Below are positions 2,408-35,209 of a DNA stretch of 64,000 nucleotides, piece by piece. Origin of the DNA: Chloroflexota bacterium. Its GTDB lineage: Bacteria > Chloroflexota > UBA11872 > VXNJ01. Below the pieces are notes generated by a model that saw nothing but the letters and a program-made list of their open reading frames with translations, searched no databases and was not told where the DNA came from. Position numbers and translations under genes: made by a program. The stretch's first letter is position 1; each line of letters opens with the position of its first letter. Where the stretch lies: positions 1,871,850-1,935,849 of the forward strand of contig OZ252242.1 of assembly GCA_965249595.1 (NCBI GenBank). Direction: 5' to 3'.

Positions 2408-3190
2408 ATGGCCACAATTCCAGCCGCCGGTGACCGACTGGGCAAGACCCTGCGGGTCGATCGCTGGTGGATAGAACCGGTCCGATTCGGCCTGGTTTTT
2501 GGAGCATTTGTCGTCTATGCGAGCTGGGCCCTGCTACAGGGCGCCAACAACGATAACCACATCGCCGAACCATACCTTTCGCCCCTTTATTCGCCGCATT
2601 TTGCCGGCTTGATTTGGCCTGACTGGTGGCCCCAGTTCCTGCGCACCCCGGCTCTACTGATACTCTGGGCGCCGCTGTCCTTCCGCATTACCTGCTACTA
2701 CTACCGGCGCTCATACTACCGCTCGTACTTCCTCTCCCCGCCGGCCTGCGCGGTGGGTCGTCTAAACCTGCCTTACGCCGGTGAGCGGCGGCTGTTGGTA
2801 TTGCAAAACCTGCATCGCTATACGCTCATTTTTGCCCTCGCCCTGGTGGTGATCCTCAGCTACGACGCGGTTGTCGCCTTCTTCTTTGCCGAAGGCTTCG
2901 GCGTCGGCTTGGGCACCCTGATATTGCTCGCCAATGCGGTGGGGATTGCCGGATACACGTTCGGCTGCCATTCGTTGCGGCACCTAGTAGGCGGCCGCAT
3001 TGACTGTTTCTCCTGCTCGCTCGTTAGCCGTAGCCGCGGCCGCGCCTGGCGTTTTCTCACCCGATTTAACGAGCGGCACGGACAGTGGGCCTGGTACTCG
3101 CTGGTATGGGTCGCCCTAGCTGATGCCTACGTGCGATTGGTGGCCACCGGGACAATCACCGACCCGCGCTGGATCATCATCCCGGCATGA
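2408..3190 (+). CDS. Succinate dehydrogenase membrane anchor, mycobacterial Sdh1 (Rv0249c)-like
   Basis: Multi-TM protein with YLSPLYSP, FRITCYYYR and GCHSLRH motifs; overlaps the sdhA start (ATGA). Confidence 0.8.
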   Translation: MATIPAAGDRLGKTLRVDRWWIEPVRFGLVFGAFVVYASWALLQGANNDNHIAEPYLSPLYSPHFAGLIWPDWWPQFLRTPALLILWAPLSFRITCYYYRRSYYRSYFLSPPACAVGRLNLPYAGERRLLVLQNLHRYTLIFALALVVILSYDAVVAFFFAEGFGVGLGTLILLANAVGIAGYTFGCHSLRHLVGGRIDCFSCSLVSRSRGRAWRFLTRFNERHGQWAWYSLVWVALADAYVRLVATGTITDPRWIIIPA

Positions 3191-4989
3191 GCGTCAATCC
3201 CGAACGACTCGCCTACGACGTGTTGGTCATAGGCGCCGGCGGCGCCGGCCTGCGGGCCGCGCTCGCCGCCAGTTCGCTCGGCGCCAAGGTCGGGGTCGTT
3301 TGCAAGTCGCTGCTTGGCAAAGCCCACACCGTTATGGCCGAGGGTGGGATGGCCGCAGCGCTGCGCAACACCGACCCGCGTGACTCCTGGGAGGTCCACT
3401 TTCGCGACACCATGCGCGGCGGGAAACTGCTAAACCAATGGCGCATGGCCCAGATCCATGCCCTGGAGGCTCCCGACCGGGTCCGCGAACTGGAGGCCTG
3501 GGGGGCCGTGTTCGACCGCACTGATGACGGCCTGATCCTGCAGCGAAACTTCGGCGGCCATCGCTATCCCCGGCTGGCTCACGTCGGCGACCGCACCGGG
3601 CTGGAGATGATCCGCACGCTGCAAGATCACGGAATCCACCAGGGTCTCTCCGTTCATATGGAGGTCACCGTCACCAGCCTGCTAATTGACGATGGCCGGG
3701 TAGTGGGCGCCTTTGCTTACCAGCGCTCGGACGGAAAGCTTTTGGCCATCGCCGCCAAATCGGTAATCATCGCCACCGGCGGAGCCTGCCGGGCCTGGGC
3801 CATCAACACCAATTCCTGGGAGGGCACCGGCGACGGGCATGCCCTGGCTTGGCGCGCCGGAGCGGACCTGATCGATATGGAATTCGTCCAGTTCCACCCG
3901 ACCGGAATGGTTTGGCCGCCCTCGGTGCGCGGCATATTGGTCACCGAGGCGGTCCGCGGCGAAGGTGGAGTGCTGCGTAATCGGTCCGGTGAGCGTTTCA
4001 TGTTCGACAACGTGCCGGCGATGTTTGAAGGCGAATTCGCCGAAGACGAAAACGAGGCCCGCCGCTGGCTGGGCGGTGACAAATCAGCCCGTCGCCCACC
4101 CGAATTGCTCACCCGCGACGAGGTGGCAAGGGCGATATTGCGGCAGGTTGGAAACGAGGAGGGGTCACCGCACGGCGGTGTGTTTCTCGACATCGCCTCA
4201 CAGCGGTCGGCAAGCGACATCCGCTCGCGCCTGCCCTCGATGTACCACCAGTTTTCCGAATTGGCGCAGGTCGATATCACTCGCACACCAATGGAAGTCG
4301 GGCCCACCGCGCACTACATCATGGGCGGGATCCGCATCGATCCGGAAACCCAGCAATCAACAATGGCGGGATTGTTCGCTGCCGGCGAGGCCGCCGGTGG
4401 AATGCACGGCGCCAATCGACTGGGCGGCAATTCGTTGACCGACCTCTTGGTATTCGGTAAACGGGCCGGGCAGTTTGCCGCCGAGGCGGCCCTGGCCGCA
4501 GGCGAAATGCCGTCACTTTCAGAATCAATCATCGACGCCGCGACGACCGATGCGATGTCACCGTTTTCGCGCCCCAAAGATGAAAACCCATTCCAATTGC
4601 TCTCATCGCTACAGGAGATGATGGATCAAAAAGTGGGCATCATCCGCCGGGCCAGCGATCTGCAGTCAGCGCTCGGCGATCTTGACCAATACGCCGCGCG
4701 CGCCCAGCGCGCCGGGGTTGCGTCAGGCGGTTACTTTAACGTCGGCTGGCACCAAGTCCTCGATCTTGAAAGCGTATTCACGGTGGCCAGGGCCTCGGCC
4801 ATGGCCGGACTGATGCGCGAAGAGAGCCGGGGCGCCCATACCCGTGATGATCATCCGGCCGCTGAATCGGCCTGGGGCGACCGTTCAGTGATCGTCTCGC
4901 GCGCCGACGACGGTTCAATGTCTGTGCGCACCGAACAACTGGAAAAACCACCGGCCGACTTACAAGCCATCATCGACAGGGATAGTTAG
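3187..4989 (+). CDS. sdhA: Succinate dehydrogenase/fumarate reductase flavoprotein, intact
   Basis: GAGGAG, KAHTVMAEGG (FAD-His), QFHPTG, TEAVRGEGG, RDEVAR, HYIMGG and GANRLGGNSL all present. Confidence 0.95.
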   Translation: MSVNPERLAYDVLVIGAGGAGLRAALAASSLGAKVGVVCKSLLGKAHTVMAEGGMAAALRNTDPRDSWEVHFRDTMRGGKLLNQWRMAQIHALEAPDRVRELEAWGAVFDRTDDGLILQRNFGGHRYPRLAHVGDRTGLEMIRTLQDHGIHQGLSVHMEVTVTSLLIDDGRVVGAFAYQRSDGKLLAIAAKSVIIATGGACRAWAINTNSWEGTGDGHALAWRAGADLIDMEFVQFHPTGMVWPPSVRGILVTEAVRGEGGVLRNRSGERFMFDNVPAMFEGEFAEDENEARRWLGGDKSARRPPELLTRDEVARAILRQVGNEEGSPHGGVFLDIASQRSASDIRSRLPSMYHQFSELAQVDITRTPMEVGPTAHYIMGGIRIDPETQQSTMAGLFAAGEAAGGMHGANRLGGNSLTDLLVFGKRAGQFAAEAALAAGEMPSLSESIIDAATTDAMSPFSRPKDENPFQLLSSLQEMMDQKVGIIRRASDLQSALGDLDQYAARAQRAGVASGGYFNVGWHQVLDLESVFTVARASAMAGLMREESRGAHTRDDHPAAESAWGDRSVIVSRADDGSMSVRTEQLEKPPADLQAIIDRDS

Positions 4990-4991
4990 CC

Positions 4992-5750
4992 ATGGGCAAC
5001 AACGCAACTTTGCGGGTCCAGCGGGGAACCGCCCAAAACACCCACTTTGCCGAATACGAAGTGCCCCTCGCCGAAGGCACGGTTGTGCTTGACGCACTGC
5101 ACTGGGTTCAGCAGAACGCCGATCCTTCATTGGCCTGCCGTTGGAACTGCAAAGCCGGAAAATGCGGATCATGCTCGATGGAAATCAACGGCAAGCCGGC
5201 CCTGGCTTGCATGACCGGATTCCATGACATCGACACGGAGAAACCGGTCAATATCAGCCCGCTCAAGGCTTTTCCGGTCATTTCCGACTTGGTCAGCGAT
5301 GTCAGCTGGAATTATTCCGCCAAGCAATCGATTCGCAAGTTTTCACCGCGCGCTCAGACCCCCGATGAGCACATGGCCGGCGGCTGGAAAATGGCCCAGC
5401 AAGATATCGATCGCGTACAAGAATTTCGAAAGTGCATCGAGTGCTTCCTCTGCCAGGACGTGTGTCACGTCCTGCGCTCCAGCGCCCTCCATGAGCAGTT
5501 TGTCGGCCCGCGCCTGCTGGTCTATGCGGCCGCCCTGGAGATGCACCCGCTCGACGAATTGGACCGGCGCGAGGAGTTGCGGGAGGCCCACGGAGTGGGG
5601 TTTTGCAACATCACCAAGTGCTGCACCGAAGTTTGCCCGGAGGGAATCAAGATCACCGACAACGCCATCATTCCGCTCAAAGAGCGGGTGGCTGATGATG
5701 CCTATGACCCCTTGGCGAAGTTGTACAACAAGATTTTTGGTCGAATCTAG
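4992..5750 (+). CDS. sdhB: Succinate dehydrogenase iron-sulfur subunit, intact
   Basis: CKAGKCGSC...LAC, CIECFLCQDVC and CNITKCCTEVCP give complete ligand sets for all three clusters. Confidence 0.95.
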   Translation: MGNNATLRVQRGTAQNTHFAEYEVPLAEGTVVLDALHWVQQNADPSLACRWNCKAGKCGSCSMEINGKPALACMTGFHDIDTEKPVNISPLKAFPVISDLVSDVSWNYSAKQSIRKFSPRAQTPDEHMAGGWKMAQQDIDRVQEFRKCIECFLCQDVCHVLRSSALHEQFVGPRLLVYAAALEMHPLDELDRREELREAHGVGFCNITKCCTEVCPEGIKITDNAIIPLKERVADDAYDPLAKLYNKIFGRI

Positions 5751-5784: not shown

Positions 5785-6711
5785 TTAGATTCCCATCACA
5801 TCGACTAGTTCGCGAACCGAAGCCGCCGAGCGCCGCAATCCGTCCAACTCTTCGTCGGTCAGCTGGAAGTCCATCACCGCTTCAGCGCCGCCGGCTCCCA
5901 GTTTTACGAGGACTCCGACGACAGTGTCGTTGATGCCAAATTCGCCCTCAAGCAGCACGGCGCAGGGGTAAAGACGATTTTGGTCTAACAAGATCGAATC
6001 GACCATCATGGCGCAGGCCTCGCCGGGGGCCTCATATGCCCCGCCGATCTTCATATGCTCGACAATCTCGCCGCCGCCATTGCGGGTCCTATCAACGATG
6101 GCCGTCAACCGCTCGGCCGATATCAGCGATCGCACCGGCATGCCGGCCACGGTGGTGTAGCTGGGGACCGGCACCATCGTGTCGCCGTGACCACCGAGCA
6201 CAAACCCGGTTATGTCAGTAGGGGAAACACCAAGTTCCCAGGCCAAAAAGGTGCGGTAACGGGAAGAATCCAGGATGCCGCCCTGGCCGATGACCCGTTC
6301 CTTGGGCAGACCGGAGACCCGCAACGCCAGTTGGGTCATGGCGTCCATCGGATTGGAGAGGATGATCAATATCGTCTCCGGCGATCGTGTCACCAGTTCG
6401 CGCGTGACCTGCTCAACGATCGCCTTGTTGGCCAGCAACAGATCGTCGCGGCTCATGCCCGGCTTGCGCGGAAATCCCGAGGTAATGACACAAACCTGTG
6501 AACCGGCGGTCTCGTCGTAGGAGTTGGTGCCAAGGATGTTGGGAGGATACCCGCACAGTGATCCGGCGTGATTGAGATCTAGCGCCTTACCCTGCGCCAG
6601 ACCCTCCACGATGTCGATCAAAACGACGTCGGCATATCCACGCTCGGCCACCCTGCGGGCGGTCGAGCCGCCGGTGGCGCCGGCGCCAACAACTGTTACT
6701 TTAGGTCGCAT
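5785..6711 (-). CDS. mdh: Malate dehydrogenase (LDH-like)
   Basis: GAGATG, RKPGMSRDDLL, SNPMDAM, LDSSR and GGHGD motifs. Confidence 0.95.
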   Translation of the reverse strand: MRPKVTVVGAGATGGSTARRVAERGYADVVLIDIVEGLAQGKALDLNHAGSLCGYPPNILGTNSYDETAGSQVCVITSGFPRKPGMSRDDLLLANKAIVEQVTRELVTRSPETILIILSNPMDAMTQLALRVSGLPKERVIGQGGILDSSRYRTFLAWELGVSPTDITGFVLGGHGDTMVPVPSYTTVAGMPVRSLISAERLTAIVDRTRNGGGEIVEHMKIGGAYEAPGEACAMMVDSILLDQNRLYPCAVLLEGEFGINDTVVGVLVKLGAGGAEAVMDFQLTDEELDGLRRSAASVRELVDVMGI

Positions 6712-6769: not shown

Positions 6770-7483
6770 TTAGCGCGGGTCGGAAAAACCATTGACCGCG
6801 GCTGAGCGTTTCAACTTATCAATCTGGGCAAATGGAGCAAGCGAATAGGGACAGGGATCGCCAACGATGGATTCTGAATTGCAGGCCCAGACGCCGTCGC
6901 GACCAACCGCCAATTGCATTCGCTCGCGATCGAAATCGTCGCGCGTATCGGCCGCCAATCGGTAGGTCTTGAGCAGGAAACGGGCTCCGATGAAGTCGGA
7001 TGGCGGATGGCGCAGGGCTCCATCGCAAATCCCGCACATGTTGCAATATTCGCTGCGTTGCAGCCGGTCCAACTGTTCGCGGGTCATCTCCGTCGGCCGG
7101 CCCAAATCAACGCTTTCGGTGCGCTGCAGCCAGGGCCGCAGCTGGGCGATGCGGTTGGAGGCTATATCCGAATCGACCACCAGGTCGACGATTACCGCGT
7201 GGTTAGCCAGCGGCCCAATCCGGACTTCATCGTCCCCGGTTGGCAAAGGTTCACGCACCGGGAGCACCGGCCGCCCATTTAGGGCAACCGCCCCGATACC
7301 GGAAAAACCGCCGGGTTCGGCCTCGCGAAAGCGCAGACTGCAGTCTTGTTCATCACGGATTTGAATGAGCGCGTCCTGGACGGTCATCGCCGGTACCCGC
7401 CTGACCGAAAAGGATTGCCAGGTCGGGGACAATTCCAATTCGGGATCGAACCGGGAGATGCTCAGCACTGCCAGTGAAATCAT
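6770..7483 (-). CDS. Degenerate SdhB/FrdB-like Fe-S protein
   Basis: SdhB-like RFDPE, TVQDAL and VIVDLVVD; only CNMCGIC, one GVWAC Cys and the final CP are retained; ATG overlaps the upstream TGA. Confidence 0.8.
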   Translation of the reverse strand: MISLAVLSISRFDPELELSPTWQSFSVRRVPAMTVQDALIQIRDEQDCSLRFREAEPGGFSGIGAVALNGRPVLPVREPLPTGDDEVRIGPLANHAVIVDLVVDSDIASNRIAQLRPWLQRTESVDLGRPTEMTREQLDRLQRSEYCNMCGICDGALRHPPSDFIGARFLLKTYRLAADTRDDFDRERMQLAVGRDGVWACNSESIVGDPCPYSLAPFAQIDKLKRSAAVNGFSDPR

Positions 7484-9042
7484 GCTGCCACTCCCGCTTC
7501 CTGCGGGCTCAGGGATGCGGTTTGGTCGGTCACCACGGCCGCCCCTTGCTGCCGCAAAACTATGTGCATCGCTTCTTGGTCGTCGCCCTCCGGGTGGTCC
7601 GAGCGACGGTGACATCCACGTGATTCGGTTCGACTTTGGGCACCGGCGATGACGGCGCTGGCGGTTATTGCGGCCCGCCGCAGTTCGATCAACCGAACCA
7701 ATTCGAGGTTGTAGTGCGACCCATTCCAGGCCGGGGCGGCACGAGCGGCCGAGTCGCTGATTTCGGCGACCAATAGAGCGGCCTCGCCGAGACCATCGGC
7801 GCTGCGGGAGAGACCGACAAAGTCCGACATCACCGCCCTTAGGCGGCCAAACAGGGCGCCCGGATCGACCGAATCGTCGCCCCTGAAAGCCAGTTGCAGC
7901 CTGGCCTGGGCGTCTATCCGGGCCGATTCGGGCAGGTTTGCCGGCCGCGGCGCAATCCCGTTGGCGACGGATTTGGCGGAATCGACCAGGTCAAGAATCG
8001 CGTTGCCGGGCAGCAAGCCGCCACCAAGCAATGGCGAGGCGGCCGCCTCGCCGGCTACATAAAGCCCATCGACGCCGGTGCAGGGGTTAACTCCGCCAAG
8101 GGCGAAATGAACTGACGGGACCAGCGGGGATTTGAGGTCATCGCCGAGCAGTGCCGCAATTTCAGGAGCGACCAATTCAATTTCATCGGCAAAGGGGGAA
8201 AAATCGGCAGCCGGTGACGAACTCTCTTCAATTGCCAGGGCCAAAGACCCATGGGTCAATCCGGGCGCTGCGTCCAGCCCGGTGATTCCGCGTCCGGCCA
8301 TCGCCAGCGCGCCGCCAATGGCTGCGCCTTTGACTGAATCAGACGGGTGATCGATCCCGGCGGCCCATTCGATCATTTCCATATCGGCCAGTTGGGAACC
8401 GGCCGTTAAGGCCAGCGCCTGGCTGGTTCCGACGGCAAAACCCAGATTGTCGCTTACAGCAAAGAGGCCGCCCAGCGAACCATCGGTTAGCAACACGTTG
8501 CCGCTGGCGAAACCCTGCGCCAGGCCGGAGCGGATGTTGTAAGCAGTCAGGCCGCAGATTCCCGATTCGTCAGTGTGGAGATCCAGTGGCACCCATTCAG
8601 TAAAGACGTCGATCGAATAGGCGGCGACCCGGTCAATTAACGCATTGAGCACCGCCCGTCCGCTCCACCATCCGGCGGCCACGGTGTAGGCCACGCTGTT
8701 ATTGGCAAGTTTGATTTGGGCCAGACCGGCATCGTCGGAACGGGCAAATGCCGTTCCCATGTGCTCAAGTTCGACAACTACGGCGGCGGCGGCGGAACCG
8801 GCCGACTCTATCTGCTGCGGTTGTGCCAAACCCGCGCCGGCGGCGGTGCTGTCGGCAATGAAAGCCGCCATCTGATCGTCGCCGCTGGGGGCGTTGATCC
8901 CGTCGCGCAGATTGCCGTCGGGCGACTGGGCCAGAGCGGTCCGGCTGACGATGGCTACGTTTAGTTGCGCCTCAGCGGCGGCGATTGCGGCGCGTAGTCC
9001 GGCGATCCCGCCGCCCACGACAACCAGGTCGTACTCGATCAA
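7480..9042 (-). CDS. Degenerate SdhA/FrdA-like FAD-binding protein
   Basis: GGGIAG Rossmann motif, DMEM, HFALGG, GLYVAGE and ESRGCH present; catalytic His/Arg residues mostly replaced. Confidence 0.8.
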   Translation of the reverse strand: MIEYDLVVVGGGIAGLRAAIAAAEAQLNVAIVSRTALAQSPDGNLRDGINAPSGDDQMAAFIADSTAAGAGLAQPQQIESAGSAAAAVVVELEHMGTAFARSDDAGLAQIKLANNSVAYTVAAGWWSGRAVLNALIDRVAAYSIDVFTEWVPLDLHTDESGICGLTAYNIRSGLAQGFASGNVLLTDGSLGGLFAVSDNLGFAVGTSQALALTAGSQLADMEMIEWAAGIDHPSDSVKGAAIGGALAMAGRGITGLDAAPGLTHGSLALAIEESSSPAADFSPFADEIELVAPEIAALLGDDLKSPLVPSVHFALGGVNPCTGVDGLYVAGEAAASPLLGGGLLPGNAILDLVDSAKSVANGIAPRPANLPESARIDAQARLQLAFRGDDSVDPGALFGRLRAVMSDFVGLSRSADGLGEAALLVAEISDSAARAAPAWNGSHYNLELVRLIELRRAAITASAVIAGAQSRTESRGCHRRSDHPEGDDQEAMHIVLRQQGAAVVTDQTASLSPQEAGVAA

Positions 9043-9143
9043 GCGGCAGGGCCTCGGTCTGCTGATTGGGACAAGGGGGTCAAGGGCAACAAGTTAGTCA
9101 GTTTAGAAACCCTTAAAAACCCACGAGTTGGATTTTAAATTGC

Positions 9144-9176
9144 GACTGGCGGCTCGATCGCCCGGCGACGCCAATC
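9144..9176 (-). terminator. Stem-loop immediately after sucD
   Basis: Minus-strand GATTGGCG...CGCCAGTC stem with only a weak U tract. Confidence 0.35.
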
Positions 9177-10036
9177 TAGATGCGACTGGCAATCAGATCT
9201 CCCACCTGGTCGGGATAGTCGGCGACCGGAACGCCAACCTGGCGTAGTGCCGCAATCTTGTCGGCAGCCGCGCCCGAGCCGCCCGATACGATGGCCCCGG
9301 CATGCCCCATGCGGCGCTCGGGCGGGGCCGCCCGACCGGCGATGAATGACACGACCGGTTTGGTGACTTGTTGGGCGATGAATTCGGCGGCATTCTCCTC
9401 GTCCTGACCACCGATTTCGCCGATAAGGACGACGGCGTCGGTATCGGGATCGTCCTCAAAGAGCTCCAGGGCATCGTTGAAATTGGTCCCGATGAGTGGA
9501 TCACCGCCGATCCCCAGGCACAAGCCCTGGCCGATGTCACGGTTACTTAACGCTTGAATAACCTCATAGGTAAGGGTCCCGGAGCGCGAAACCACGCCGA
9601 TCCGGCCGGGCATGGCAATCGAACCCGGGATGATCCCCAGCTTGGTTTGGCCGGGCAGGATCAGGCCCGGGCAGTTTGGCCCGATGACCCGCGCCCCGCG
9701 GGCCGCGGCAAAGGAGAGCATCCGCGCCGAATCGAGGACCGGTATGCCCTCGGTTATGGCAACGATCAGCGAAATGCCGGCCGCGGCCTGTTCGCAAACC
9801 GCATCAGCGGCCGCAAATGCGGGCACAAACACCACTCCGGCCCGCGCACCGGAGTCGGCAACCGCGTCGCGCACACTGTCAAACACTGGCACGCCGTTTT
9901 CAGTTGTGCCACCTCGCCCCGGAACCACTCCCGAAACCACGTTGGCTCCGTAATCGAGCATTAGTCGCGTATGGAAGGATCCTTGGCGGCCTGTTATGCC
10001 CTGCACCAGAATCGGCGTGGCAGCGTCTACCAGCAA
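9176..10036 (-). CDS. sucD: Succinyl-CoA synthetase alpha subunit
   Basis: [30 protein letters not shown] and RMGHAGA (phospho-His); TTG start with GGAG. Confidence 0.95.
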
Positions 10037-10039
10037 GAT

Positions 10040-11173
10040 CTAGGCTCCGCTTGCGGCAATTGCCGCCTGCACCGCGCTGATCATGCCGCGGTGGGCTGAG
10101 ATCCCGGCAGCCCGCAAAATCGCGAGCCCCTCCTGTTCGTTGGTGCCCACCAAGCGGGTTACCAACGGCACCGAGCGGTCCAGGCTGGCCAGGGCCGCCG
10201 TTATCCCGCGGGCCACATCGTCACAGCGGGTGATACCACCGAATATGTTGACCAGCACGACTTTCACGCCGGGATCGGAGAGTATGATCTCCATCGCCTG
10301 GCGAACCTGGGCGGCATCGGCGCCGCCACCGACATCGAGGAAGTTGGCCGGCTGGCCGCCTTCGCTGACGATCACGTCCAGCAACGCCATTGCCAATCCG
10401 GCGCCGTTGACCATACAACCGATGGATCCGTCCAACTTCACGTAGGCAATGCCCGCGGCGCGGGCCGCTGCCTCCTGTGCCGTCTCCTCTTCCGGATTGC
10501 GCAGGGTGGCCAGGTCGGGGTGCCGGAACAGCGCCGAGTCGTCTAACGTGATCTTGGCGTCGATTGCCGACAGTTCCCCCTGGGCAGTGACCACCAGCGG
10601 GTTGATCTCAACCAAAGAGGCATCGTGATCCTCCAAGCAGCGCACCGTTTGGGCCGCGATATTGGCAAAGCGGGACACCAAATCCCCGGGGATGCCCAGG
10701 TCGTAGCCAAGTTGACGGCCCGCATATGGGGCCAGACCCTGGCCGGCGGGGCAATAAACGCGTTTTATCGCCGCCGGCTGCTCAGCGGCAACCTGTTCAA
10801 TGTCGACCCCTCCGGCGGCGGAGGCCATGACCATGACCTGCGCGCGGGCCCGATCCGGCAGGGCTGCCAAGTAGAACTCGGAGGCGATTTCAACCTGTTC
10901 GGCAACCATCAAGCGGTCAACCGAGTGCCCGCCAATTGAAAGCCCCAAGATTTCGGCGGCGGCGGCGCTGGCCGCGGGCGGATCGTCAGCCAGGCGGATA
11001 CCGCCAGCCTTGCCGCGCCCGCCGGAGAGGACTTGTGCTTTAACGACCACCGGGCGACCCAATTGAGCCGCCGCCGCCGCCGCCTCGGCCGGAGTACCCA
11101 CGACCACGGCGTTAGGAACCGGCAGGCCGCTTGCCGAGAGCAGCAGCCGGGATTGATGTTCGTGCAACTTCAA
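10040..11173 (-). CDS. sucC: Succinyl-CoA synthetase beta subunit
   Basis: KLHEHQ, KAQVLSGGRGKAGG, EINPL, NGAGLAM, NFLDVGGG and NIFGGI; likely TTG start at 11173. Confidence 0.95.
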   Translation of the reverse strand: MKLHEHQSRLLLSASGLPVPNAVVVGTPAEAAAAAAQLGRPVVVKAQVLSGGRGKAGGIRLADDPPAASAAAAEILGLSIGGHSVDRLMVAEQVEIASEFYLAALPDRARAQVMVMASAAGGVDIEQVAAEQPAAIKRVYCPAGQGLAPYAGRQLGYDLGIPGDLVSRFANIAAQTVRCLEDHDASLVEINPLVVTAQGELSAIDAKITLDDSALFRHPDLATLRNPEEETAQEAAARAAGIAYVKLDGSIGCMVNGAGLAMALLDVIVSEGGQPANFLDVGGGADAAQVRQAMEIILSDPGVKVVLVNIFGGITRCDDVARGITAALASLDRSVPLVTRLVGTNEQEGLAILRAAGISAHRGMISAVQAAIAASGA

Positions 11174-11347
11174 AGTGGGCAAAACTCGGATGCTAAAGGG
11201 CTTTCCAACGTAAGGCCCAACTATTTTTAGTTTCGACGATCCATGGCCCAATTGGCCGCCATGCCGCCCGGGCTTGGGGTAAGCCGTTCCCTAGAATCGC
11301 CCGACCCTACGTTACGCCTCGGGCGCGTAGCAGAGCAGGTGGTGGCC

Positions 11348-26442: not shown

Positions 26443-28458
26443 TCATTTTCGGCTCCGCCGCCGGTCGAGCGAGTATTCCGGAGCATACGGTCGCCGATCG
26501 ACTAAAAGCTGGTATACGGCGCTGGACCCGCGGATTTCGGTTGGCACGGCCCCGAAGCCGTTGGGCAGGATCAGAAACGGCCGCGATTGCTCACCACCGG
26601 CGCCGCCGTGCACGCTGACCTGGTTTTCAAACGCAACCACCTGGCCGCTTTCGAGCTGAGCGCCGTTAACGATAAGGTCGCCGGAATTCGAATACGATGC
26701 CAGATTGCGGATCGAATCACGGAGCTGGCGAGGATAAGCGGCGAGCGGGTCGGAGCCGTTGAGGGCGTCAGCCGATAGATTTATCATGCCGGCGGCGCCC
26801 TGAACCAGAACCTCGCCGGCCCGATTGCGAGTGATCACAAAATCGATCCCGGGATGATTGGCCAGGGTCGTGATCAATTCGGGGTAAAGATCGGCGATGT
26901 CCTCGACCGCCAATTGACCCGGTTGGCCGGTCAAATATATGTTGGCCAGGTTCCCAGACGGGCAAACGACGATGTCATCGGCGGAAACTTTGCGCAGGGC
27001 CGGTGCCAGCCCGGCCGCTGAGGCGGCCGCCGCGCCGCCCATTCGCTGCAGCAAAGACCGCATCGCAAAGCCCGCCGCGCGGGTTGATTCAGCGGCCGCG
27101 ATCGCCGAGTTGTGACCGGTCAATTCGAGTTCGCTCCGGTTGGTACGAATCCGCACCAACCGGGCGGCGCTGGTGACCAGCTCGGCGAGCGGGTATTCGA
27201 ACAGGCTCTCAAATGGGACGGCGGCGGTCTGTCCGTGGTCAGAGAGGATCACCATCGTGTATTCGCGCGGAGACGACTGGGCCGCCCGCCGCAGCCTGGC
27301 CAAGTGCCGGTCAAGGGTCTTTAGCGACCGCAGCGCGTTACTGCTGCGAGCTCCGCGGTAATGGGCAACCACGTCGTAGCCCACGTAAGTCATATATATC
27401 GCCGGAGTGCCATTGAAGAGTTCGCGGGTGGCAAAAAAGGTGGTCATCTCAGCGAACAGCACGGTGGTCACGGCCCGCTTTATCGGAAAGGTGAAATGCG
27501 CGCCGCCCGAACGCAGCAAGCGCAGTTCGGAAACCGTGGAGACCGCAACTTCAAAGATCATTTCCACGAGCAGGCGGAAAAAGCTGTGTGGGTTTTGGAA
27601 GAACAAAAACGCAGTTTCAAGCTGTTCGCGCATCCGATTTCTGGCTTTTACTTCGCTGGCCGTGGCCAACGCGGTGCTGGCCCCGCCACCTAAGAGATTG
27701 GCGATGCTGGTGCCGCCGCGGAGCAGGGCTCGCGGATGGTCCCGCTGGCGGGCGATGGCCGCCGCGTCGTCGACGTCGGAAGATTCGATCATTCGCCCGG
27801 CCGATTTGTCATACCAGCGAAAACCCGGGATTTCGCTCTCGTCGCCATAGAGGATTCCGGCCTGTGAGGACGATGTTTGAGTCGGCAGTTCGCACCACCA
27901 TTCGCGCACCTCAAATTGCCGGCCCAGTAACCATCGGCGCAGATTTGGCATCCGCCGCGCCTCCACCGCTTCGCGCAGTATTGGTGCCGCCAATCCATCG
28001 ATCTCAACCATCAACAGACCCGGTCCGACCAGCTCCGCATCAGTGGTGCGGGCGGTCAGGCGATGGGCAAAGTAGTAGGAAAAATCATCGTCATCGTCCT
28101 TGAGCGAGAGCACCGTGGCCAGGCTATGGACGACCGTGCTGGCCAGGGCCAGCAGCAGCACGGTACCGATTTCGGCCGGCGGTTGTCCGGGAACCCAATC
28201 TATCGCGACGTTTATGACAACGGCATTTAACACCAGCGACCAGAGGCCCAGCGTTCCGATCACCAGCGGCAGGGTGAATATCAATAGCAGCGGCCGCAGC
28301 AGAATATTGCCCAGCACGATCGCCGCCGCCAACTTCAGGCCCTGCTCCAGATCGGCGACTGAAAATCCGGGCAACAGGAAGGACATCAGTTCCAATGCGC
28401 CCAGCTGCAGGGCAATGACAAATACCGTCTGCCGCAGTACCCGGCCCAGCCGCGGCAT
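26443..28458 (-). CDS. Membrane protein: YvlD/phage-holin-like N-terminus fused to an alkaline-phosphatase-superfamily domain
   Basis: Four N-terminal TM helices (TLGLWSLVLNA), then EIDGL, TQTSSSQAGIL, YDVVAH, LSDHGQ and HGG metal-ligand motifs. Confidence 0.75.
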   Translation of the reverse strand: MPRLGRVLRQTVFVIALQLGALELMSFLLPGFSVADLEQGLKLAAAIVLGNILLRPLLLIFTLPLVIGTLGLWSLVLNAVVINVAIDWVPGQPPAEIGTVLLLALASTVVHSLATVLSLKDDDDDFSYYFAHRLTARTTDAELVGPGLLMVEIDGLAAPILREAVEARRMPNLRRWLLGRQFEVREWWCELPTQTSSSQAGILYGDESEIPGFRWYDKSAGRMIESSDVDDAAAIARQRDHPRALLRGGTSIANLLGGGASTALATASEVKARNRMREQLETAFLFFQNPHSFFRLLVEMIFEVAVSTVSELRLLRSGGAHFTFPIKRAVTTVLFAEMTTFFATRELFNGTPAIYMTYVGYDVVAHYRGARSSNALRSLKTLDRHLARLRRAAQSSPREYTMVILSDHGQTAAVPFESLFEYPLAELVTSAARLVRIRTNRSELELTGHNSAIAAAESTRAAGFAMRSLLQRMGGAAAASAAGLAPALRKVSADDIVVCPSGNLANIYLTGQPGQLAVEDIADLYPELITTLANHPGIDFVITRNRAGEVLVQGAAGMINLSADALNGSDPLAAYPRQLRDSIRNLASYSNSGDLIVNGAQLESGQVVAFENQVSVHGGAGGEQSRPFLILPNGFGAVPTEIRGSSAVYQLLVDRRPYAPEYSLDRRRSRK

Positions 28459-29343: not shown

Positions 29344-30825
29344 CTAGAGGTAGCCGCCCGAGGCTGGCGGGAATGTCCGCTCGGTCGGCTCATCAACTTC
29401 CAGAGCTCGATCGATAGCGGCCTGGGCTTCTTCGTTATATCGCGGTGCAGCTTCACGCGGATCGGCGTTGCCAAGGATGACGGCTTCCTGGAGCTTGGCA
29501 TAGGAAGTCCAGACTTCAGCTGTTGCCGGTCCGTAGTAGAACGCAAACGAGTTCTTTTGGCCGTCAATGAACGGTTGCACTCCCGGAATCGACCGCCGGT
29601 AGGCACTGTAGACGACCGAGTCGCGGAACGAGAAGCGTGGCGGAATTTGGCCGAACGCCGTGCACCAGATCGAGTCGTTTTCAGGGTCGTTACCAATGAA
29701 ATTGGTAAAGTGCCAGCCACCTTCAGAGTTCCTGCCGCCAGCGGGCAACTGCAATGCACCATAACCGATCGGGTTCAGGTTGGAAATCGGGCCGGCCGGC
29801 AGCAGGGCAACGCGCCCAACTTCCACGCCCAGGTTCTGAACGGCATTCTGCAGGCGCGACGGGTAGGCGCCGTAATGGCCCAGCAGGCCGGTGCCAAAGT
29901 CGTTCGTCTGCGAGGTTTCGTCGGCAGCCTTGAATTGGAGTGTTTCAGCATCCACGAACCTGGCCACCCAATCAAAATAATTGATCATTTCGGGGCTGTC
30001 CAGGATGGCCTTGGTTCCGGATTCGTCGACACCGAAGGCGCCGAAGCGGAAAAACCAACCGGTAGAAAGGTTTCCGGTGCCGGTATTGGGCTTGGTCGTC
30101 AGTGACATCCCGGTCACCTCGTCGCCAACCAAGTGAACCCTTGATGCGTTTTCGAACAGCTCTTCGGTCGTCGCCGGCGGAACGTCGGGGTCCAGACCAG
30201 CGGCTCGGTACAGGTCGGCGTTGTAATAAAGCGACATCGTACCGCTGTTGACCGGCATCGCCCACATCTTGCCGCGCCAGGTGATCGACTCGGTAATCGA
30301 CGGGACAAAATCAAAGCTCTGGATGTCCGGTTCGAACTGGTCCAACTCGTGCATGACGCCGCGGCGGAAGAACGCGTTAATCAGAATGGATCCACCAACG
30401 CGAACGACGTCGGGCGGATTGCCACCGGCGATTGCGGCGGTCAGCTTGACGGTCAATTCGTTGTTTGGAACAAGAATCGGGTCCAGCCGGTAGGCGCTTT
30501 GCTGGCGGTGATAGTGGCCGACAACATGCTTTTCAAAGTTTGCTTGCTGGGTGGCCTGGTTGAACCATACGTTGGTGACTTGGGTCACCGGTTGAGCAGC
30601 CTCGCCCTCGACCAAGATCGTCACGACCCTCGTCTCGCCGGCTTCGCCCGGAACCTCAACGGTTACTACCTTGGGTTCGGAGGGAACCTCGACGGTCACT
30701 ACCCTTTCGACAACCTCGGTTACTACCTCGGGGTCGCCACAGCCGGCCAGGGCGGCCGTTGTCGCTAGTCCGGCAGCACCCACCGCGGACACCCGCAGGG
30801 CTGTCCGGCGGCTTACTTTCCGCAT
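29344..30825 (-). CDS. CUT1-type sugar ABC substrate-binding lipoprotein, copy A
   Basis: Tat-like SRRTAL, lipobox LAGC, GNPPD, MPVNS and LYYNADLYRAAGLDP; ATG at 30825 with GGAAGG (GTG at 30840 also possible). Confidence 0.9.
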   Translation of the reverse strand: MRKVSRRTALRVSAVGAAGLATTAALAGCGDPEVVTEVVERVVTVEVPSEPKVVTVEVPGEAGETRVVTILVEGEAAQPVTQVTNVWFNQATQQANFEKHVVGHYHRQQSAYRLDPILVPNNELTVKLTAAIAGGNPPDVVRVGGSILINAFFRRGVMHELDQFEPDIQSFDFVPSITESITWRGKMWAMPVNSGTMSLYYNADLYRAAGLDPDVPPATTEELFENASRVHLVGDEVTGMSLTTKPNTGTGNLSTGWFFRFGAFGVDESGTKAILDSPEMINYFDWVARFVDAETLQFKAADETSQTNDFGTGLLGHYGAYPSRLQNAVQNLGVEVGRVALLPAGPISNLNPIGYGALQLPAGGRNSEGGWHFTNFIGNDPENDSIWCTAFGQIPPRFSFRDSVVYSAYRRSIPGVQPFIDGQKNSFAFYYGPATAEVWTSYAKLQEAVILGNADPREAAPRYNEEAQAAIDRALEVDEPTERTFPPASGGYL

Positions 30826-30887
30826 GCTTTTTCCTTCCACTTAGTGCGCCAGCAACTAACTCGCGCCAATTGTCAAAATAACACGCC

Positions 30888-31161: not shown

Positions 31162-32643
31162 CTAGAGGTAGCCGCCCGAGGATGGCGGGAATGTCCGCTC
31201 GGTCGGCTCATCATCTTCCAGAGCTCGATCGATAGCGGCCTGGGCTTCTTCGTTATATCGCGGTGCAGCTTCACGCGGATCGGCGTTGCCAAGGATGACG
31301 GCTTCCTGGAGCTTGCCAAAGGAAGTCCAGACTTCAGCTGTTGCCGGTCCGTAGTAGAACGCAAACGAGTTCTTTTGGCCGTCAATGAACGGTTGCACTC
31401 CCGGAATCGACCGCCGGTAGGCACTGTAGACGACCGAGTCGCGGAACGAGAAGCGTGGCGGAATTTGGCCGAACGCCGTGCACCAGATCGAGTCGTTTTC
31501 AGGGTCGTTACCAATGAAATTGGTAAAGTGCCAGCCACCTTCAGAGTTCCTGCCGCCAACCGGCAACTGCAGGACCCCAACACCAATCGGGTTCAGGTTG
31601 GAAATCGGGCCGGCCGGCAGCAGGGCAACGCGCCCAACTTCCACGCCCAGGTTCTGAACGGCATTCTGCAGGCGCGACGGGTAGGCGGCGTAATGGCCCA
31701 GCAGGCCGGTGCCAAAGTCGTTCGTCTGCGAGGTTTCGTCGGCGGACTTGAACTGGAGTATTTCGGCATCCACGAACCTGGCCACCCAATCAAAATAGTT
31801 GAGCATTTCGGGGCTGTCCAGGAGAGCCTTGGTTCCGGATTCGTCGACACCGAAGGCGCCGTGGCGAAAGAATAATCCGGAAGAGGTGTTTCCAGTGCCC
31901 AAATTGGGCTTGGTCGGCAGCGACATCCCGGTGACCTCGTCGCCAACCGAATCAATCTTCTGCGAGTTCACAAAGAGCTCTTCGGTCGTCGCCGGCGGGG
32001 AGTCGGGGTCCAGACCAGCGGCTCGGTACAGGTCGGCGTTGTAATAAAGCGACATCGTACCGCTGTTGACCGGCATCGCCCACATCTTGCCGCGCCAGGT
32101 GAGTGCCTGGGTAATCGACGGGACAAAATCAAAGCTCTGGATGTCCGGTTCGAACTGGTCCAACTCGTGCATGACGCCGCGGCGGAAGAACGCGTTAGAC
32201 AGGGTAATTCCACCAACGCGAACGGCGTCGGGCGGATTGCCACCGGCGATTGCGGCGGTCAGCTTGACGGTCAATTCGTTGTTTGGAACAAGAATCGGGT
32301 CCAGCCGGTAGGCGCTTTGCTGGCGGTGATAGTGGCCGACAACATGCTTTTCAAAGTTTGCTTGCTGGGTGGCCTGGTTGAACCATACGTTGGTGACTTG
32401 GGTCACCGGTTGAGCAGCCTCGCCCTCGACCAAGATCGTCACGACCCTCGTCTCGCCGGCTTCGCCCGGAACCTCAACGGTTACTACCTTGGGTTCGGAG
32501 GGAACCTCGACGGTCACTACCCTTTCGACAACCTCGGTTACTACCTCGGGGTCGCCACAGCCGGCCAGGGCGGCCGTTGTCGCTAGTCCGGCAGCACCCA
32601 CCGCGGACACCCGCAGGGCTGTCCGGCGGCTTACTTTCCGCAT
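31162..32643 (-). CDS. CUT1-type sugar ABC substrate-binding lipoprotein, copy B
   Basis: Paralog of copy A with about 33 amino-acid differences by manual count. Confidence 0.9.
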   Translation of the reverse strand: MRKVSRRTALRVSAVGAAGLATTAALAGCGDPEVVTEVVERVVTVEVPSEPKVVTVEVPGEAGETRVVTILVEGEAAQPVTQVTNVWFNQATQQANFEKHVVGHYHRQQSAYRLDPILVPNNELTVKLTAAIAGGNPPDAVRVGGITLSNAFFRRGVMHELDQFEPDIQSFDFVPSITQALTWRGKMWAMPVNSGTMSLYYNADLYRAAGLDPDSPPATTEELFVNSQKIDSVGDEVTGMSLPTKPNLGTGNTSSGLFFRHGAFGVDESGTKALLDSPEMLNYFDWVARFVDAEILQFKSADETSQTNDFGTGLLGHYAAYPSRLQNAVQNLGVEVGRVALLPAGPISNLNPIGVGVLQLPVGGRNSEGGWHFTNFIGNDPENDSIWCTAFGQIPPRFSFRDSVVYSAYRRSIPGVQPFIDGQKNSFAFYYGPATAEVWTSFGKLQEAVILGNADPREAAPRYNEEAQAAIDRALEDDEPTERTFPPSSGGYL

Positions 32644-32766
32644 GCTTTTTCCTTCCACTTAGTGCGCCAGCAACTAACTCGCGCCAATTGTCAAAATAAC
32701 ACGCCTTTAAGGACATGACCCTTAAATTCCGTGCTTCCAATATTAATGGCGGCCGGGCCGCCGACG

Positions 32767-34929: not shown

Positions 34930-35075
34930 CTACAAGGAGAGGCCCCAGTCGGACCCCCGTTTAACGGGGGCCACGAGCGGGGAATGCGGTTCGATTCCGC
35001 AGCGGACGCGCCACCGTGATTGACCGGGTGCTGGGACTGCCAGCTTCCGTCATGAGCCGGGCTACCGGGCCGGGG
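34930..35075 (+). ncRNA. Cobalamin riboswitch
   Basis: GGGAA-TGCGG TTCGATT CCGCA, GCCACCGTGA and GAGCCGGGCTACC match the B12-element core; lies upstream of btuFCD. Boundaries approximate. Confidence 0.85.
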
Positions 35076-35209
35076 TCTTCGCCCAAACGCCGTTCGCGCA
35101 AGCAATCTAGACATTTTTTTCAGATCTCGACGGCCGGGCGCGCCGGCGGCGTTGGCGTGCTCGTCGCCAGGGCTGCAACATGCAAACCCTCCTTCAACCT
35201 CTCTAGGCC

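What the first reader, a model, noticed from the sequence alone, without database searches (positions are those of the whole stretch)
7480..9042. SdhA-like flavoprotein lacks the covalent-FAD His and most catalytic residues
Seen against the intact copy in this window: KAHTVMAEGG becomes QSPDGNLRDG (FAD-His lost); QFHPT becomes EWAAG; TEAVRGEGG and RDEVAR are unrecognisable and the capping domain is shortened; NRLGGNSL becomes LLPGNAIL. The Rossmann GxGxxG, HFALGG, AGE and ESRGCH motifs are kept. Inference: the FAD-binding fold and C-terminal domain are maintained without a dicarboxylate site, giving either a pseudo-enzyme or a new substrate.
Basis: partly seen in the sequence, partly recalled or inferred. 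Interest (0 to 1): 0.62.

Follow-up and report, generated by a model that had tools for sequence, protein, structure and literature searches.

The report
Stripped-down succinate dehydrogenase paralog pair
This gene and the one after it encode copies of the two catalytic succinate dehydrogenase subunits that have lost the substrate site and two of three iron-sulfur clusters, yet selection keeps them in a small group of uncultured Chloroflexota next to a normal enzyme, so they must now do something else that is still unknown.

Summary
Window 7480-9042 (-) encodes a 520-aa protein (A') with the full SdhA/FrdA fold (AF2 pLDDT 92, TM 0.85-0.90 to solved SdhA/FrdA). It lacks the equivalents of SdhA H45, H242, T254, E255, R286 and R399, and its capping domain is shortened.

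It is not a lone oddity or a decaying gene.
- Its stop overlaps (ATGA) the start of an SdhB-like gene (B', 6770-7483). B' keeps exactly the four [4Fe-4S] cysteines and has lost all [2Fe-2S] ligands and two (window) or all three (relatives) [3Fe-4S] ligands.
- The order sucC-sucD-A'-B'-mdh, facing an intact SDH operon, recurs in about 15 Chloroflexota lineages (mostly sponge metagenome MAGs) and in a more distant marine lineage.
- Both genes are under purifying selection (dN/dS: A' 0.15-0.23, B' 0.09-0.17).
- T254->G, loss of R286 and R399->L are family-wide. The covalent-FAD His is kept in 13 of 15 core members and lost in this window's copy.

Succinate/fumarate chemistry and the FAD-to-quinone electron path are therefore gone. 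The best reading is a maintained SdhAB-derived heterodimer with a new role, either non-catalytic (about 0.45) or acting on a new substrate (about 0.35). I found no description of such a pair in the literature searched.

The parts
7480..9042 (-). A': degenerate SdhA/FrdA-like flavoprotein, 520 aa, TTG start, GAGG about 10 nt upstream
   Evidence: Searches give the motif states. Searches give the AF2 model (pLDDT 92.2, pTM 0.93) and the Foldseek top hits SdhA/FrdA (TMq 0.85-0.90). Searches give dN/dS of 0.15-0.23.
6770..7483 (-). B': degenerate SdhB/FrdB-like protein, 237 aa. The true start is ATG at 7483; the 281-aa ORF to 7615 is an over-extension. It keeps only C147, C150, C153 and C211-P, the [4Fe-4S] ligands.
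   Evidence: (TIGR00384 126 bits, above the cut-off of 88). Searches give the AF2 model (pLDDT 83.5) and Foldseek TM 0.85 to E. coli SdhB/FrdB. One search gives dN/dS of 0.09-0.17.
7480..7483 (-). ATGA overlap of the A' stop (TGA) with the B' start (ATG), which suggests translational coupling
   Evidence: One search shows it in the window. The same 4-nt overlap is present in L001, L003, L006, L007, L008 and L009.
5785..6711 (-). mdh, malate dehydrogenase, last gene of the string
   Evidence: TIGR01763, 402 bits, above cut-off.
9176..10036 (-). sucD, succinate--CoA ligase alpha subunit
   Evidence: TIGR01019, 400 bits.
10040..11251 (-). sucC, succinate--CoA ligase beta subunit. The profile match starts at residue 27, so the real start is probably near 11173.
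   Evidence: NF001913, 450 bits.
9043..9175 (-). 133-nt spacer between sucD and A'. In relatives this spot holds inserted restriction-modification or defence genes.
   Evidence: One search shows the spacer. Searches show the insertions in L003/L004, L008 and L009. No consensus promoter or terminator was found.
2408..5750 (+). Intact sdhC-sdhA-sdhB operon of the Mycobacterium smegmatis Sdh1 type, convergent with mdh. It has all catalytic residues and all Fe-S cysteines.
   Evidence: One search gives NF005866 at 906 bits, above the cut-off. Searches give 7d6v_A at 724 bits and 7d6v_C at 168 bits.

Best explanation
A' is the flavoprotein half of an SdhAB/FrdAB-derived heterodimer (A'B'). The pair arose by duplication or retention of an FrdAB-like enzyme in an ancestor of a marine and sponge-associated Chloroflexota group. 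It was then remodelled and is kept by selection.

Shown here:
- Both proteins keep the complete subunit folds.
- The genes are translationally coupled and sit in a conserved sucCD-A'B'-mdh string next to an intact SDH.
- Both are under purifying selection.
- All of the dicarboxylate-site residues tested family-wide (T254, R286, R399) are replaced.
- B' retains only the ligands of the middle [4Fe-4S] cluster.

Inferred:
- The pair cannot oxidise succinate or reduce fumarate.
- It cannot pass electrons from flavin to quinone, because the flavin-proximal [2Fe-2S] and the quinone-proximal [3Fe-4S] are missing.
- FAD, or at least its ADP part, is probably still bound but non-covalently. The Arg and the dicarboxylate needed for flavinylation are absent.
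- The Cys4 site most likely holds a structural or sensing [4Fe-4S].

The mechanism I commit to is a soluble, cofactor-bearing but non-respiratory module. Its value lies in its surfaces and its solitary cluster, as a scaffold, regulator or sensor tied to the TCA genes it is encoded with. It does not turn over a C4 dicarboxylate.

Probabilities:
- About 0.85 that it is a selected, non-SDH/FRD protein pair.
- About 0.45 that its role is non-catalytic.
- About 0.35 that it has a remodelled active site for another substrate.
For: Fold.

Lost residues across 15 core and 2 outlying members:
- T254->G in all.
- R286->L/P/H/D in all.
- R399->L in all.
- H242 lost in the core clade.
- E255->D (G in the window).

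B' cysteines: only C147, C150, C153 and C211 are invariant across the B' family and canonical SdhB. The [2Fe-2S] positions read E/S/G/V.

Synteny and the 4-nt overlap.

Selection:
- dN/dS is 0.15-0.23 for A' and 0.09-0.17 for B', against 0.07-0.14 for the intact SdhA.
- The FAD-domain segments are the most constrained part of A'.
- The ratio of A' dN to SdhA dN is 2-3 in every lineage, including the window's, so this copy shows no special decay.

B' is more conserved than A' (66-70% against 50-53% identity to relatives). A pure new-substrate flavoenzyme would not need that, since NadB and soluble fumarate reductases have no Fe-S subunit.

Independent assemblies from four samples (runs X5, X6, X9, X10) carry the genes with 1-5 SNPs and no indel.

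The Arg equivalent to SdhA R399 and a bound dicarboxylate are required for covalent flavinylation (PMC9557727).

Exact-match contig pieces of A' occur in three probable RNA runs, alongside pieces of sucC, sucD, mdh, sdhA and sdhB.
Against: No cofactor content, partner or activity was measured or modelled. The tools gave no coordinates and no docking.

A new invariant motif, D42-x-N44-x-R46-[DE]-G48, replaces the loop over the flavin. R46 aligns with FrdA E49 / SdhA Q50. It is shared with the distant lineage as NIREG. This looks like a selected site near the flavin and favours the new-substrate rival.

The four Cys could bind Zn rather than an Fe-S cluster.

Within the window's own population, 5 of 6 SNPs in A'B' change the protein, against 11 of 28 in thirteen neighbouring genes. 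Fisher p = 0.08, and the SNP list is incomplete. This may mean weaker constraint in this lineage.

The RNA runs are only guessed to be RNA.
Confidence: 0.45

Rival explanations
1. A' is a working flavoenzyme with a remodelled, more open active site for a substrate other than succinate, fumarate or aspartate. It exchanges electrons directly with a soluble acceptor or O2, as NadB does. B' then serves only as a structural partner.
For: - The invariant D-x-N-x-R-[DE]-G loop at the flavin face is shared by the core and the distant lineages.
- The H354 equivalent is kept in 13 of 15 core members.
- The FAD domain is under the strongest constraint.
- The truncated cap is conserved in length between lineages that are only 34% identical.
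Against: - No residue that could replace the general acid/base R286 is evident.
- The two remaining candidate His residues are each lost in some members. H41 is lost in the window and in L015. H312 is lost in P0013/L015.
- B' is more strongly conserved than A', although such an enzyme would not need it.
Confidence: 0.35
2. A'B' is an accessory of the intact SDH or of TCA enzymes in a specific way. It could compete for, or dock on, the Sdh1-type membrane anchor. It could act as an assembly platform for the real SdhAB. It could tether SucCD and Mdh into a metabolon.
For: - It always lies between sucCD and mdh and faces an intact SDH operon.
- The C-terminal helices of B', which in SdhB face the anchor, are well conserved.
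- There is a precedent for an SDH-subunit paralog co-opted without its cofactor: Tim18 with Sdh3 in the yeast TIM22 complex (PMC10238741).
Against: The neighbouring intact SDH is of two different types. It is Sdh1-type in the core clade and FrdABCD-type in L010/L016. A fixed docking partner in the anchor is therefore unlikely. No interaction was tested.
Confidence: 0.12
3. It is a decaying relic (pseudogene in progress) of the original sdhAB of a sucCD-sdhAB-mdh operon, made redundant when a second SDH was acquired.
For: - A' evolves 2-3 times faster than SdhA.
- The window's copy has lost further residues: the His pair and E255->G.
- Population SNPs are mostly non-synonymous.
Against: - The reading frames are intact in about 17 lineages that have diverged to 34-50% identity.
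- dN/dS is 0.1-0.3.
- The conserved set is exact: only the four [4Fe-4S] Cys are kept.
- New invariant motifs have appeared.
- Four independent population samples show no indels.
Confidence: 0.04
4. It is still a succinate dehydrogenase or fumarate reductase that uses non-canonical residues.
For: The overall fold, the Rossmann motif, the GE motif and the C-terminal ESRGxH are kept.
Against: - T254, R286 and R399 are lost in all members.
- H242 is lost in the core clade.
- The cap is shortened.
- B' has no [2Fe-2S] or [3Fe-4S] to carry electrons.
- A complete SDH is encoded next door.
Confidence: 0.02

Closest known systems
Complex II soluble domain, SdhA-SdhB / FrdA-FrdB (closest by profile: E. 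coli FrdA and SdhA; E. coli SdhB and FrdB by fold)
   Same: - Same two-subunit gene order with coupled translation.
- Same folds (TM 0.85-0.90).
- A' keeps the GxGxxG, GE and ESRGxH motifs.
- B' keeps the four [4Fe-4S] ligands.
- The genes sit among TCA genes.
   Different: - No dicarboxylate-binding or proton-shuttle residues.
- The cap is shorter by roughly 40-60 residues.
- No [2Fe-2S] and no [3Fe-4S] ligands.
- No adjacent anchor gene in the same operon.
- All NCBIfam SdhA/FrdA models score below their cut-offs.
L-aspartate oxidase (NadB)
   Same: - A member of the SdhA superfamily of similar length (about 520-540 aa).
- It lacks covalent FAD and works without an Fe-S wire.
- The tree places the A' clade next to NadB, with support 0.96 for the larger group. 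Long-branch attraction is possible.
   Different: - NadB keeps the equivalents of H242, R286, H354 and R399.
- NadB has no SdhB-like partner.
- The nadB models score 144 bits against a cut-off of 453.
Yeast Tim18-Sdh3 (SDH membrane-subunit paralog used in the TIM22 translocase)
   Same: A paralog of an SDH subunit that has lost its redox cofactor and been taken over for a non-respiratory role (PMC10238741).
   Different: It concerns the membrane subunits of a eukaryote, not the catalytic flavoprotein and Fe-S pair. It is an analogy only, with no homology of function implied.
Other degenerate SdhA-like proteins in metagenomes (P0149, P0193, P0198, and the Dehalococcoidia group L017-L023)
   Same: They show partial loss of the same catalytic residues. 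P0193 also has an N/C-I-R-E-G loop.
   Different: They sit in sdhC(D)AB operons with anchors, and those whose partners were read (L017-L028, L029, L030) have Fe-S subunits with full Cys sets. They do not share the A'B' operon context.

Membership tests
Succinate dehydrogenase / fumarate reductase flavoprotein (SdhA/FrdA) | Homologous fold: FAD-binding, capping, helical and C-terminal domains | tested here: met
   AF2 pLDDT 92.2. Foldseek TMq 0.85-0.90 to 7d6v_A, 5vpn_A and 1nek_A. The cap is present but shortened.
Succinate dehydrogenase / fumarate reductase flavoprotein (SdhA/FrdA) | Dicarboxylate site: H242, T254, E255, R286, H354, R399 (E. coli SdhA numbering) | tested here: not met
   In the window's copy H242->A, T254->G, E255->G, R286 is not alignable and R399->L. 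Only H354 is kept. T254, R286 and R399 are lost in all 17 family members.
Succinate dehydrogenase / fumarate reductase flavoprotein (SdhA/FrdA) | His for 8-alpha-N3-histidyl FAD (SdhA H45 / FrdA H44) | tested here: not met
   The window has Pro at this column (AQSPDGN). 13 of 15 core relatives keep His. Two pelagic relatives have Met.
Succinate dehydrogenase / fumarate reductase flavoprotein (SdhA/FrdA) | Score above curated family cut-offs (NCBIfam) | tested here: not met
   TIGR01812 scores 192.9 against 567.3. TIGR01816 scores 153 against 727. TIGR01176 scores 137 against 933. The Pfam domains FAD_binding_2 and Succ_DH_flav_C do pass.
Succinate dehydrogenase / fumarate reductase flavoprotein (SdhA/FrdA) | FAD bound | not testable with these tools
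   The GxGxxG, S-[KR] and G-E motifs are kept, and the FAD domain is the most constrained region. No docking or cofactor measurement was possible.
SdhB/FrdB iron-sulfur subunit (partner B') | Three clusters: [2Fe-2S] with 4 ligands, [4Fe-4S] with 4 Cys, [3Fe-4S] with 3 Cys | tested here: not met
   Only the four [4Fe-4S] Cys are conserved. All [2Fe-2S] positions are replaced in the core clade. The [3Fe-4S] positions are replaced except for one non-conserved Cys in the window. The assignment of ligands to clusters rests on established E. coli SdhB knowledge.
SdhB/FrdB iron-sulfur subunit (partner B') | Homologous fold and family score | tested here: met
   TIGR00384 scores 126 bits against a cut-off of 88. 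Foldseek gives TM 0.85 to 2wp9_B and 1kf6_B.
L-aspartate oxidase (NadB) | Catalytic His/Arg set equivalent to SdhA H242, R286, H354 and R399, and a score above the equivalog cut-off | tested here: not met
   The residues are lost. TIGR00551 scores 144.5 against 452.75.
Adenylylsulfate reductase alpha (AprA) | Score above the equivalog cut-off; partner AprB with two [4Fe-4S] clusters | tested here: not met
   NF005331 scores 41.6 against 557. The partner is SdhB-like, not AprB-like.

The most novel reading that the evidence does not exclude
A'B' is a true 'pseudo-complex II'. It would be the first case of the catalytic flavoprotein and iron-sulfur pair of succinate dehydrogenase being converted as a unit into a non-respiratory module. 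Its solitary [4Fe-4S] cluster, and perhaps its flavin, would sense redox, oxygen or iron status. Its conserved surfaces would organise or regulate the TCA enzymes it is co-encoded with.
Probability: 0.3. Interest if true: 0.8.

Novelty: new variant of a known kind. Interest (0 to 1): 0.58.

Why it matters
**Biology.** Complex II is among the most conserved respiratory enzymes, and its electron path (FAD, then [2Fe-2S], [4Fe-4S], [3Fe-4S], then quinone) is textbook. Here selection has kept both catalytic subunits while removing the active site and both ends of that path. Only the middle cluster remains. This is a natural experiment on what the SdhAB scaffold can do besides succinate oxidation. 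It is also a candidate for a new class of pseudoenzyme or a new flavoenzyme activity.

**Annotation.** B' passes the curated 'succinate dehydrogenase/fumarate reductase iron-sulfur subunit' threshold, and A' is named 'FAD-binding protein' or 'succinate dehydrogenase flavoprotein' in sources. Automated metabolic reconstructions of these sponge and marine Chloroflexota will therefore count a second SDH/FRD that almost certainly does not exist.

Tried and rejected
- **Whole-genome checks.** I wanted to check for fumarase, nadB, SdhE and further sdh copies. The genome search and the fetch from genomes were shut. The idea that A'B' replaces a missing TCA or NAD enzyme could not be tested. No fumarase was among the ten largest other ORFs of the window.
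- **Literature.** Four full-text searches found no description of such a pair. Only the Tim18 analogy emerged.
- **Promoter and terminator scan of the operon.** Nothing rose above the shuffled expectation.
- **Expression.** Only three small runs guessed to be RNA hold fragments. This shows presence but is not quantitative.
- **Population SNPs as a second selection test.** There were too few SNPs, and the list was truncated by the tool. The result is suggestive only (p = 0.08).
- **Wider family.** I considered that the nearest degenerate representatives (P0149, P0193) belong to the same family. I rejected this because they sit in anchor-containing sdhCDAB operons.
- **Dehalococcoidia and Poribacteria hits.** I considered that the hits of the B' profile (L017-L028) were further B' members. 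I rejected this because all three Cys sets are present.
- **Complex prediction and FAD or cluster docking.** These were not possible. The tool predicts monomers only and returns no coordinates.
- **Origin of the pair.** The tree next to NadB may reflect long-branch attraction (core stem 1.1 substitutions per site). Profile and fold ranks point to an FrdAB/SdhAB type C/D ancestry instead.
Full report
**1. What is at the coordinates**

Window 7480-9042 (-) is an uninterrupted 520-codon ORF, here called A'. Pfam finds FAD_binding_2 over profile positions 1-253 of 414 only, plus the Succ_DH_flav_C domain. Every NCBIfam model for SdhA, FrdA, NadB, TfrA and AprA matches far below its curated cut-off. 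The best is TIGR01812 at 193 bits against 567.

An intact SdhA lies 2.5 kb away on the other strand at 3187-4989. It scores 906 bits on NF005866, above the cut-off. With its SdhB and single anchor subunit, it is of the Mycobacterium smegmatis Sdh1 type: 7d6v_A at 724 bits and 7d6v_C at 168 bits.

**2.

| Intact copy | A' |
|---|---|
| GKAHTVMAEGG | AQSPDGNLRDG |
| VQFHPTG | IEWAAGI |
| TEAVRGEGG | IGGALAMAGR |
| TRDEVARA segment | cannot be aligned |
| GANRLGGNSL | GGGLLPGNAI |

GGGIAG, PSVHFALGG, VAGEAA and TESRGCH are kept. A profile of the family aligns to E. coli FrdA only over residues 3-228 and 307-491. So 78 residues stand where FrdA has about 115 of capping domain.

That alignment fixes three equivalences. 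The second His of the family's AHH corresponds to FrdA H44. The family 'V' corresponds to H232. The family 'L' corresponds to R390.

**3. The fold is intact**

AlphaFold2 with a 119-sequence alignment gives mean pLDDT 92.2 and pTM 0.93. Foldseek against the PDB returns only SdhA and FrdA chains at the top, with TMq 0.85-0.90.

**4. It is half of a pair**

The A' stop codon overlaps the start of the next gene (GCA GCA TGA / ATG ATT). That gene, B' (6770-7483, 237 aa), is a clear SdhB/FrdB homolog.
- TIGR00384 scores 126 bits against a cut-off of 88.
- The AF2 model has pLDDT 83.5.
- Foldseek gives TM 0.85 to E. coli SdhB and FrdB.

In an alignment with canonical SdhBs, the only cysteines invariant across all sequences are C147, C150, C153 and C211-P. 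By the established E. coli assignment, C149, C152, C155 and C216 bind the [4Fe-4S]. C55, C60, D63 and C75 bind the [2Fe-2S]. C159, C206 and C212 bind the [3Fe-4S]. The invariant cysteines in B' are therefore exactly the [4Fe-4S] ligands.

The four [2Fe-2S] positions read E, S, G and V. The [3Fe-4S] positions are lost. The two extra Cys of the window's copy are not conserved in relatives.

**5. It is a conserved family in a conserved place**

A search of 5.8 billion clustered proteins finds about 15 clusters at 50-53% identity to A', then a drop to 32%. B' has 9 clusters and nothing else.

An exhaustive HMMER search of 1.84 billion representatives finds one full-length 50%-identity cluster for the family (876 bits), plus a 137-aa fragment. 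The next full-length hit, P0138, scores 298 bits.

In every locus recovered (L001, L003/4, L006-L009, L011-L015, L026) the order is the same: aconitase, then divergent sucC-sucD-A'-B'-mdh, then a convergent intact sdhCAB. The records are 'Chloroflexota bacterium' MAGs with chromosomes of about 2.4 Mb. Several sample names point to sponge metagenomes.

P0138 and L016 come from pelagic marine samples, L016 from a Tara MAG. They carry the same sucCD-A'-B'-mdh string, but the neighbouring intact enzyme there is of the FrdABCD type.
- Their B' keeps the four [4Fe-4S] Cys plus two of the four [2Fe-2S] Cys.
- Their A' keeps FHP, but has Met at the covalent-His column and Leu at the R399 column.
- This looks like a less advanced stage of the same remodelling.

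The tree unites the core and pelagic A' clades with support 0.88. The core has a long stem of 1.1 substitutions per site.

**6. Selection**

Nei-Gojobori dN/dS between loci:

| Gene | dN/dS |
|---|---|
| A' | 0.15-0.23 |
| B' | 0.09-0.17 |
| SdhA | 0.07-0.14 |
| SdhB | 0.07-0.13 |
| Mdh | 0.03-0.09 |

All four regions of A' are constrained. The FAD-binding segments are the most constrained, with dN/dS of 0.03-0.23 (N-terminal 0.08-0.18). The cap remnant and the C-terminal helices are at 0.11-0.31.

A' changes 2-3 times faster than SdhA in every comparison, including those with the window. So the window's low identity to relatives (50-53%) reflects its deep branch, not a burst of decay.

Contigs from four other samples carry the region with 1-5 SNPs and no indel. 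Five of the six SNPs in A'B' are non-synonymous, against 11 of 28 in neighbouring genes (p = 0.08). They fall at positions that vary within the family. This is too thin to weigh.

**7. Which residues are really gone**

Counts are across 15 core and 2 pelagic members.

| E. coli SdhA residue | Core clade (15) | Pelagic (2) |
|---|---|---|
| T254 | G in all | G |
| R286 | L, P or H | D |
| R399 | L in all | L |
| H242 | lost | kept |
| E255 | D (G in the window) | D |
| H354 | kept in 13 | R |
| Covalent His (H45) | kept in 13; P in the window, Q in L015 | M |

According to PMC9557727, covalent flavinylation needs a bound dicarboxylate and the Arg equivalent to SdhA R399 / FrdA R390. So even the His-bearing members are unlikely to attach FAD covalently. 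This is an inference.

New family-invariant features appear in their place:
- D42-x-N44-x-R46-[DE]-G48 over the flavin face, with R46 at the column of FrdA E49.
- G-W-W-T-G-R in place of the A-D-[RK]-T-G motif.
- E225 in place of the Q of QFHPT.

**8. What it most likely is**

- Succinate/fumarate chemistry is excluded by the loss of the substrate-polarising Thr, the proton-shuttle Arg and the carboxylate-binding Arg.
- Electron transfer to a quinone is excluded by the loss of the first and last clusters. A single middle cluster is too far from the flavin in the canonical geometry. This rests on established structural knowledge and was not measured here.
- Decay is excluded by section 6.

What remains is a maintained heterodimer with a new role. 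I favour a non-catalytic, cofactor-bearing module acting as scaffold, regulator or sensor (about 0.45).
- B' would be useless to a stand-alone flavoenzyme, yet it is more conserved than A'.
- B' keeps precisely one cluster.
- No replacement catalytic base is visible in A'.
- Both remaining active-site His residues are dispensable in some members.

The rival is a remodelled active site for a different substrate (about 0.35). It is supported by the invariant charged loop at the flavin and by the strong constraint on the FAD domain.

A specific docking role on the SDH anchor seems less likely, because the neighbouring SDH type differs between lineages.

**9. Comparison with what is known**

The pair is homologous to SdhAB/FrdAB. 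Profile and fold ranks place E. coli FrdA/SdhA and SdhB/FrdB above the co-resident Sdh1 type. The pelagic A' is closest to quinol:fumarate reductase flavoproteins, at 35% identity.

It fails the defining functional features of SdhA/FrdA, SdhB/FrdB, NadB and AprA (see the membership table). I therefore do not file it as a succinate dehydrogenase.

I found no report of a degenerate SdhA/SdhB pair. The nearest analogy is yeast Tim18-Sdh3, a cofactor-less paralog pairing of the membrane subunits used in protein import (PMC10238741).

**10. Limits**

- Genome-wide searches were shut. I could not test whether A'B' tracks the absence of fumarase, NadB or SdhE.
- No coordinates, docking or multimer prediction were available.
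- Expression evidence is limited to exact-match fragments in three small runs whose RNA nature is only guessed.

**Verdict**

This is a real, selected, previously undescribed variant of the complex II catalytic pair with unknown function.

Noticed in passing
L003/L004 1869-7563; L009 5300-7797; L008 7176-7463 (equivalent to window 9043-9175): The short spacer between sucD and A' is a recurrent insertion site in relatives. L003/L004 hold a NotI-like endonuclease, a T5orf172 protein and an ABC-ATPase/DUF4435 gene. L009 holds an Eco57I-like methylase plus a XamI-like endonuclease. L008 holds an HTH gene. A'-B'-mdh must therefore be transcribable without sucCD.
   Followed up: partly
L017, L019-L023 (4330-5988 and 5989-6945): A group of Dehalococcoidia MAGs (3.3-3.4 Mb) has an SdhA-like protein with QFAPT (H242->A), ITAAARGEGA (E255->A) and SSNDVV (R286->N). 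It keeps H354 and R399. It is paired with a 318-aa SdhB that has all three cysteine sets and a C-terminal extension. This is a different, partial kind of active-site erosion.
   Followed up: no
P0149 (L030), P0193 (L029), P0198, P0140, P0142, P0146-P0150 and others: Many metagenomic SdhA-like proteins of 520-560 aa lack one or more of the covalent His, H242, R286 or R399. The two whose context was read sit in ordinary sdhC(D)AB operons with anchors. Erosion of the SdhA site may be more common than annotation suggests.
   Followed up: partly
window 6770-7615: The longest ORF for B' (281 aa, ATG at 7615) runs 132 nt into A'. All relatives start at the ATG at 7483 (MIS...), so gene callers that take the longest ORF will over-extend it.
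   Followed up: yes
window 2408-5750 versus L010 10056-13373 and L016 8565-11071: The intact SDH operon that faces mdh is Sdh1-type (single anchor, 7d6v-like) in the sponge-associated clade. It is FrdABCD-type (two small anchors) in the pelagic lineage. The same genomic slot holds two different complex II types.
   Followed up: partly
window 29344-30840 and 31162-32658: Two adjacent 498-aa solute-binding-protein genes (SBP_bac_8) of identical length and domain limits. They look like a tandem duplication.
   Followed up: no
window 34930-35087 (+): A cobalamin riboswitch (Rfam RF00174, 43 bits) lies upstream of the genes starting at 35252.
   Followed up: no
window 26443-28458 (-): A 671-aa protein combines an N-terminal 4-TMS holin-like domain (Phage_holin_4_2) with a type I phosphodiesterase / nucleotide pyrophosphatase domain. 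This is an unusual fusion.
   Followed up: no
window 10040-11251 (-): The sucC ORF as listed (403 aa, TTG) is about 26 residues longer than the profile match and than relatives (375 aa). The real start is probably near 11173, which would remove the overlap with the divergent aconitase gene at 11243.
   Followed up: no
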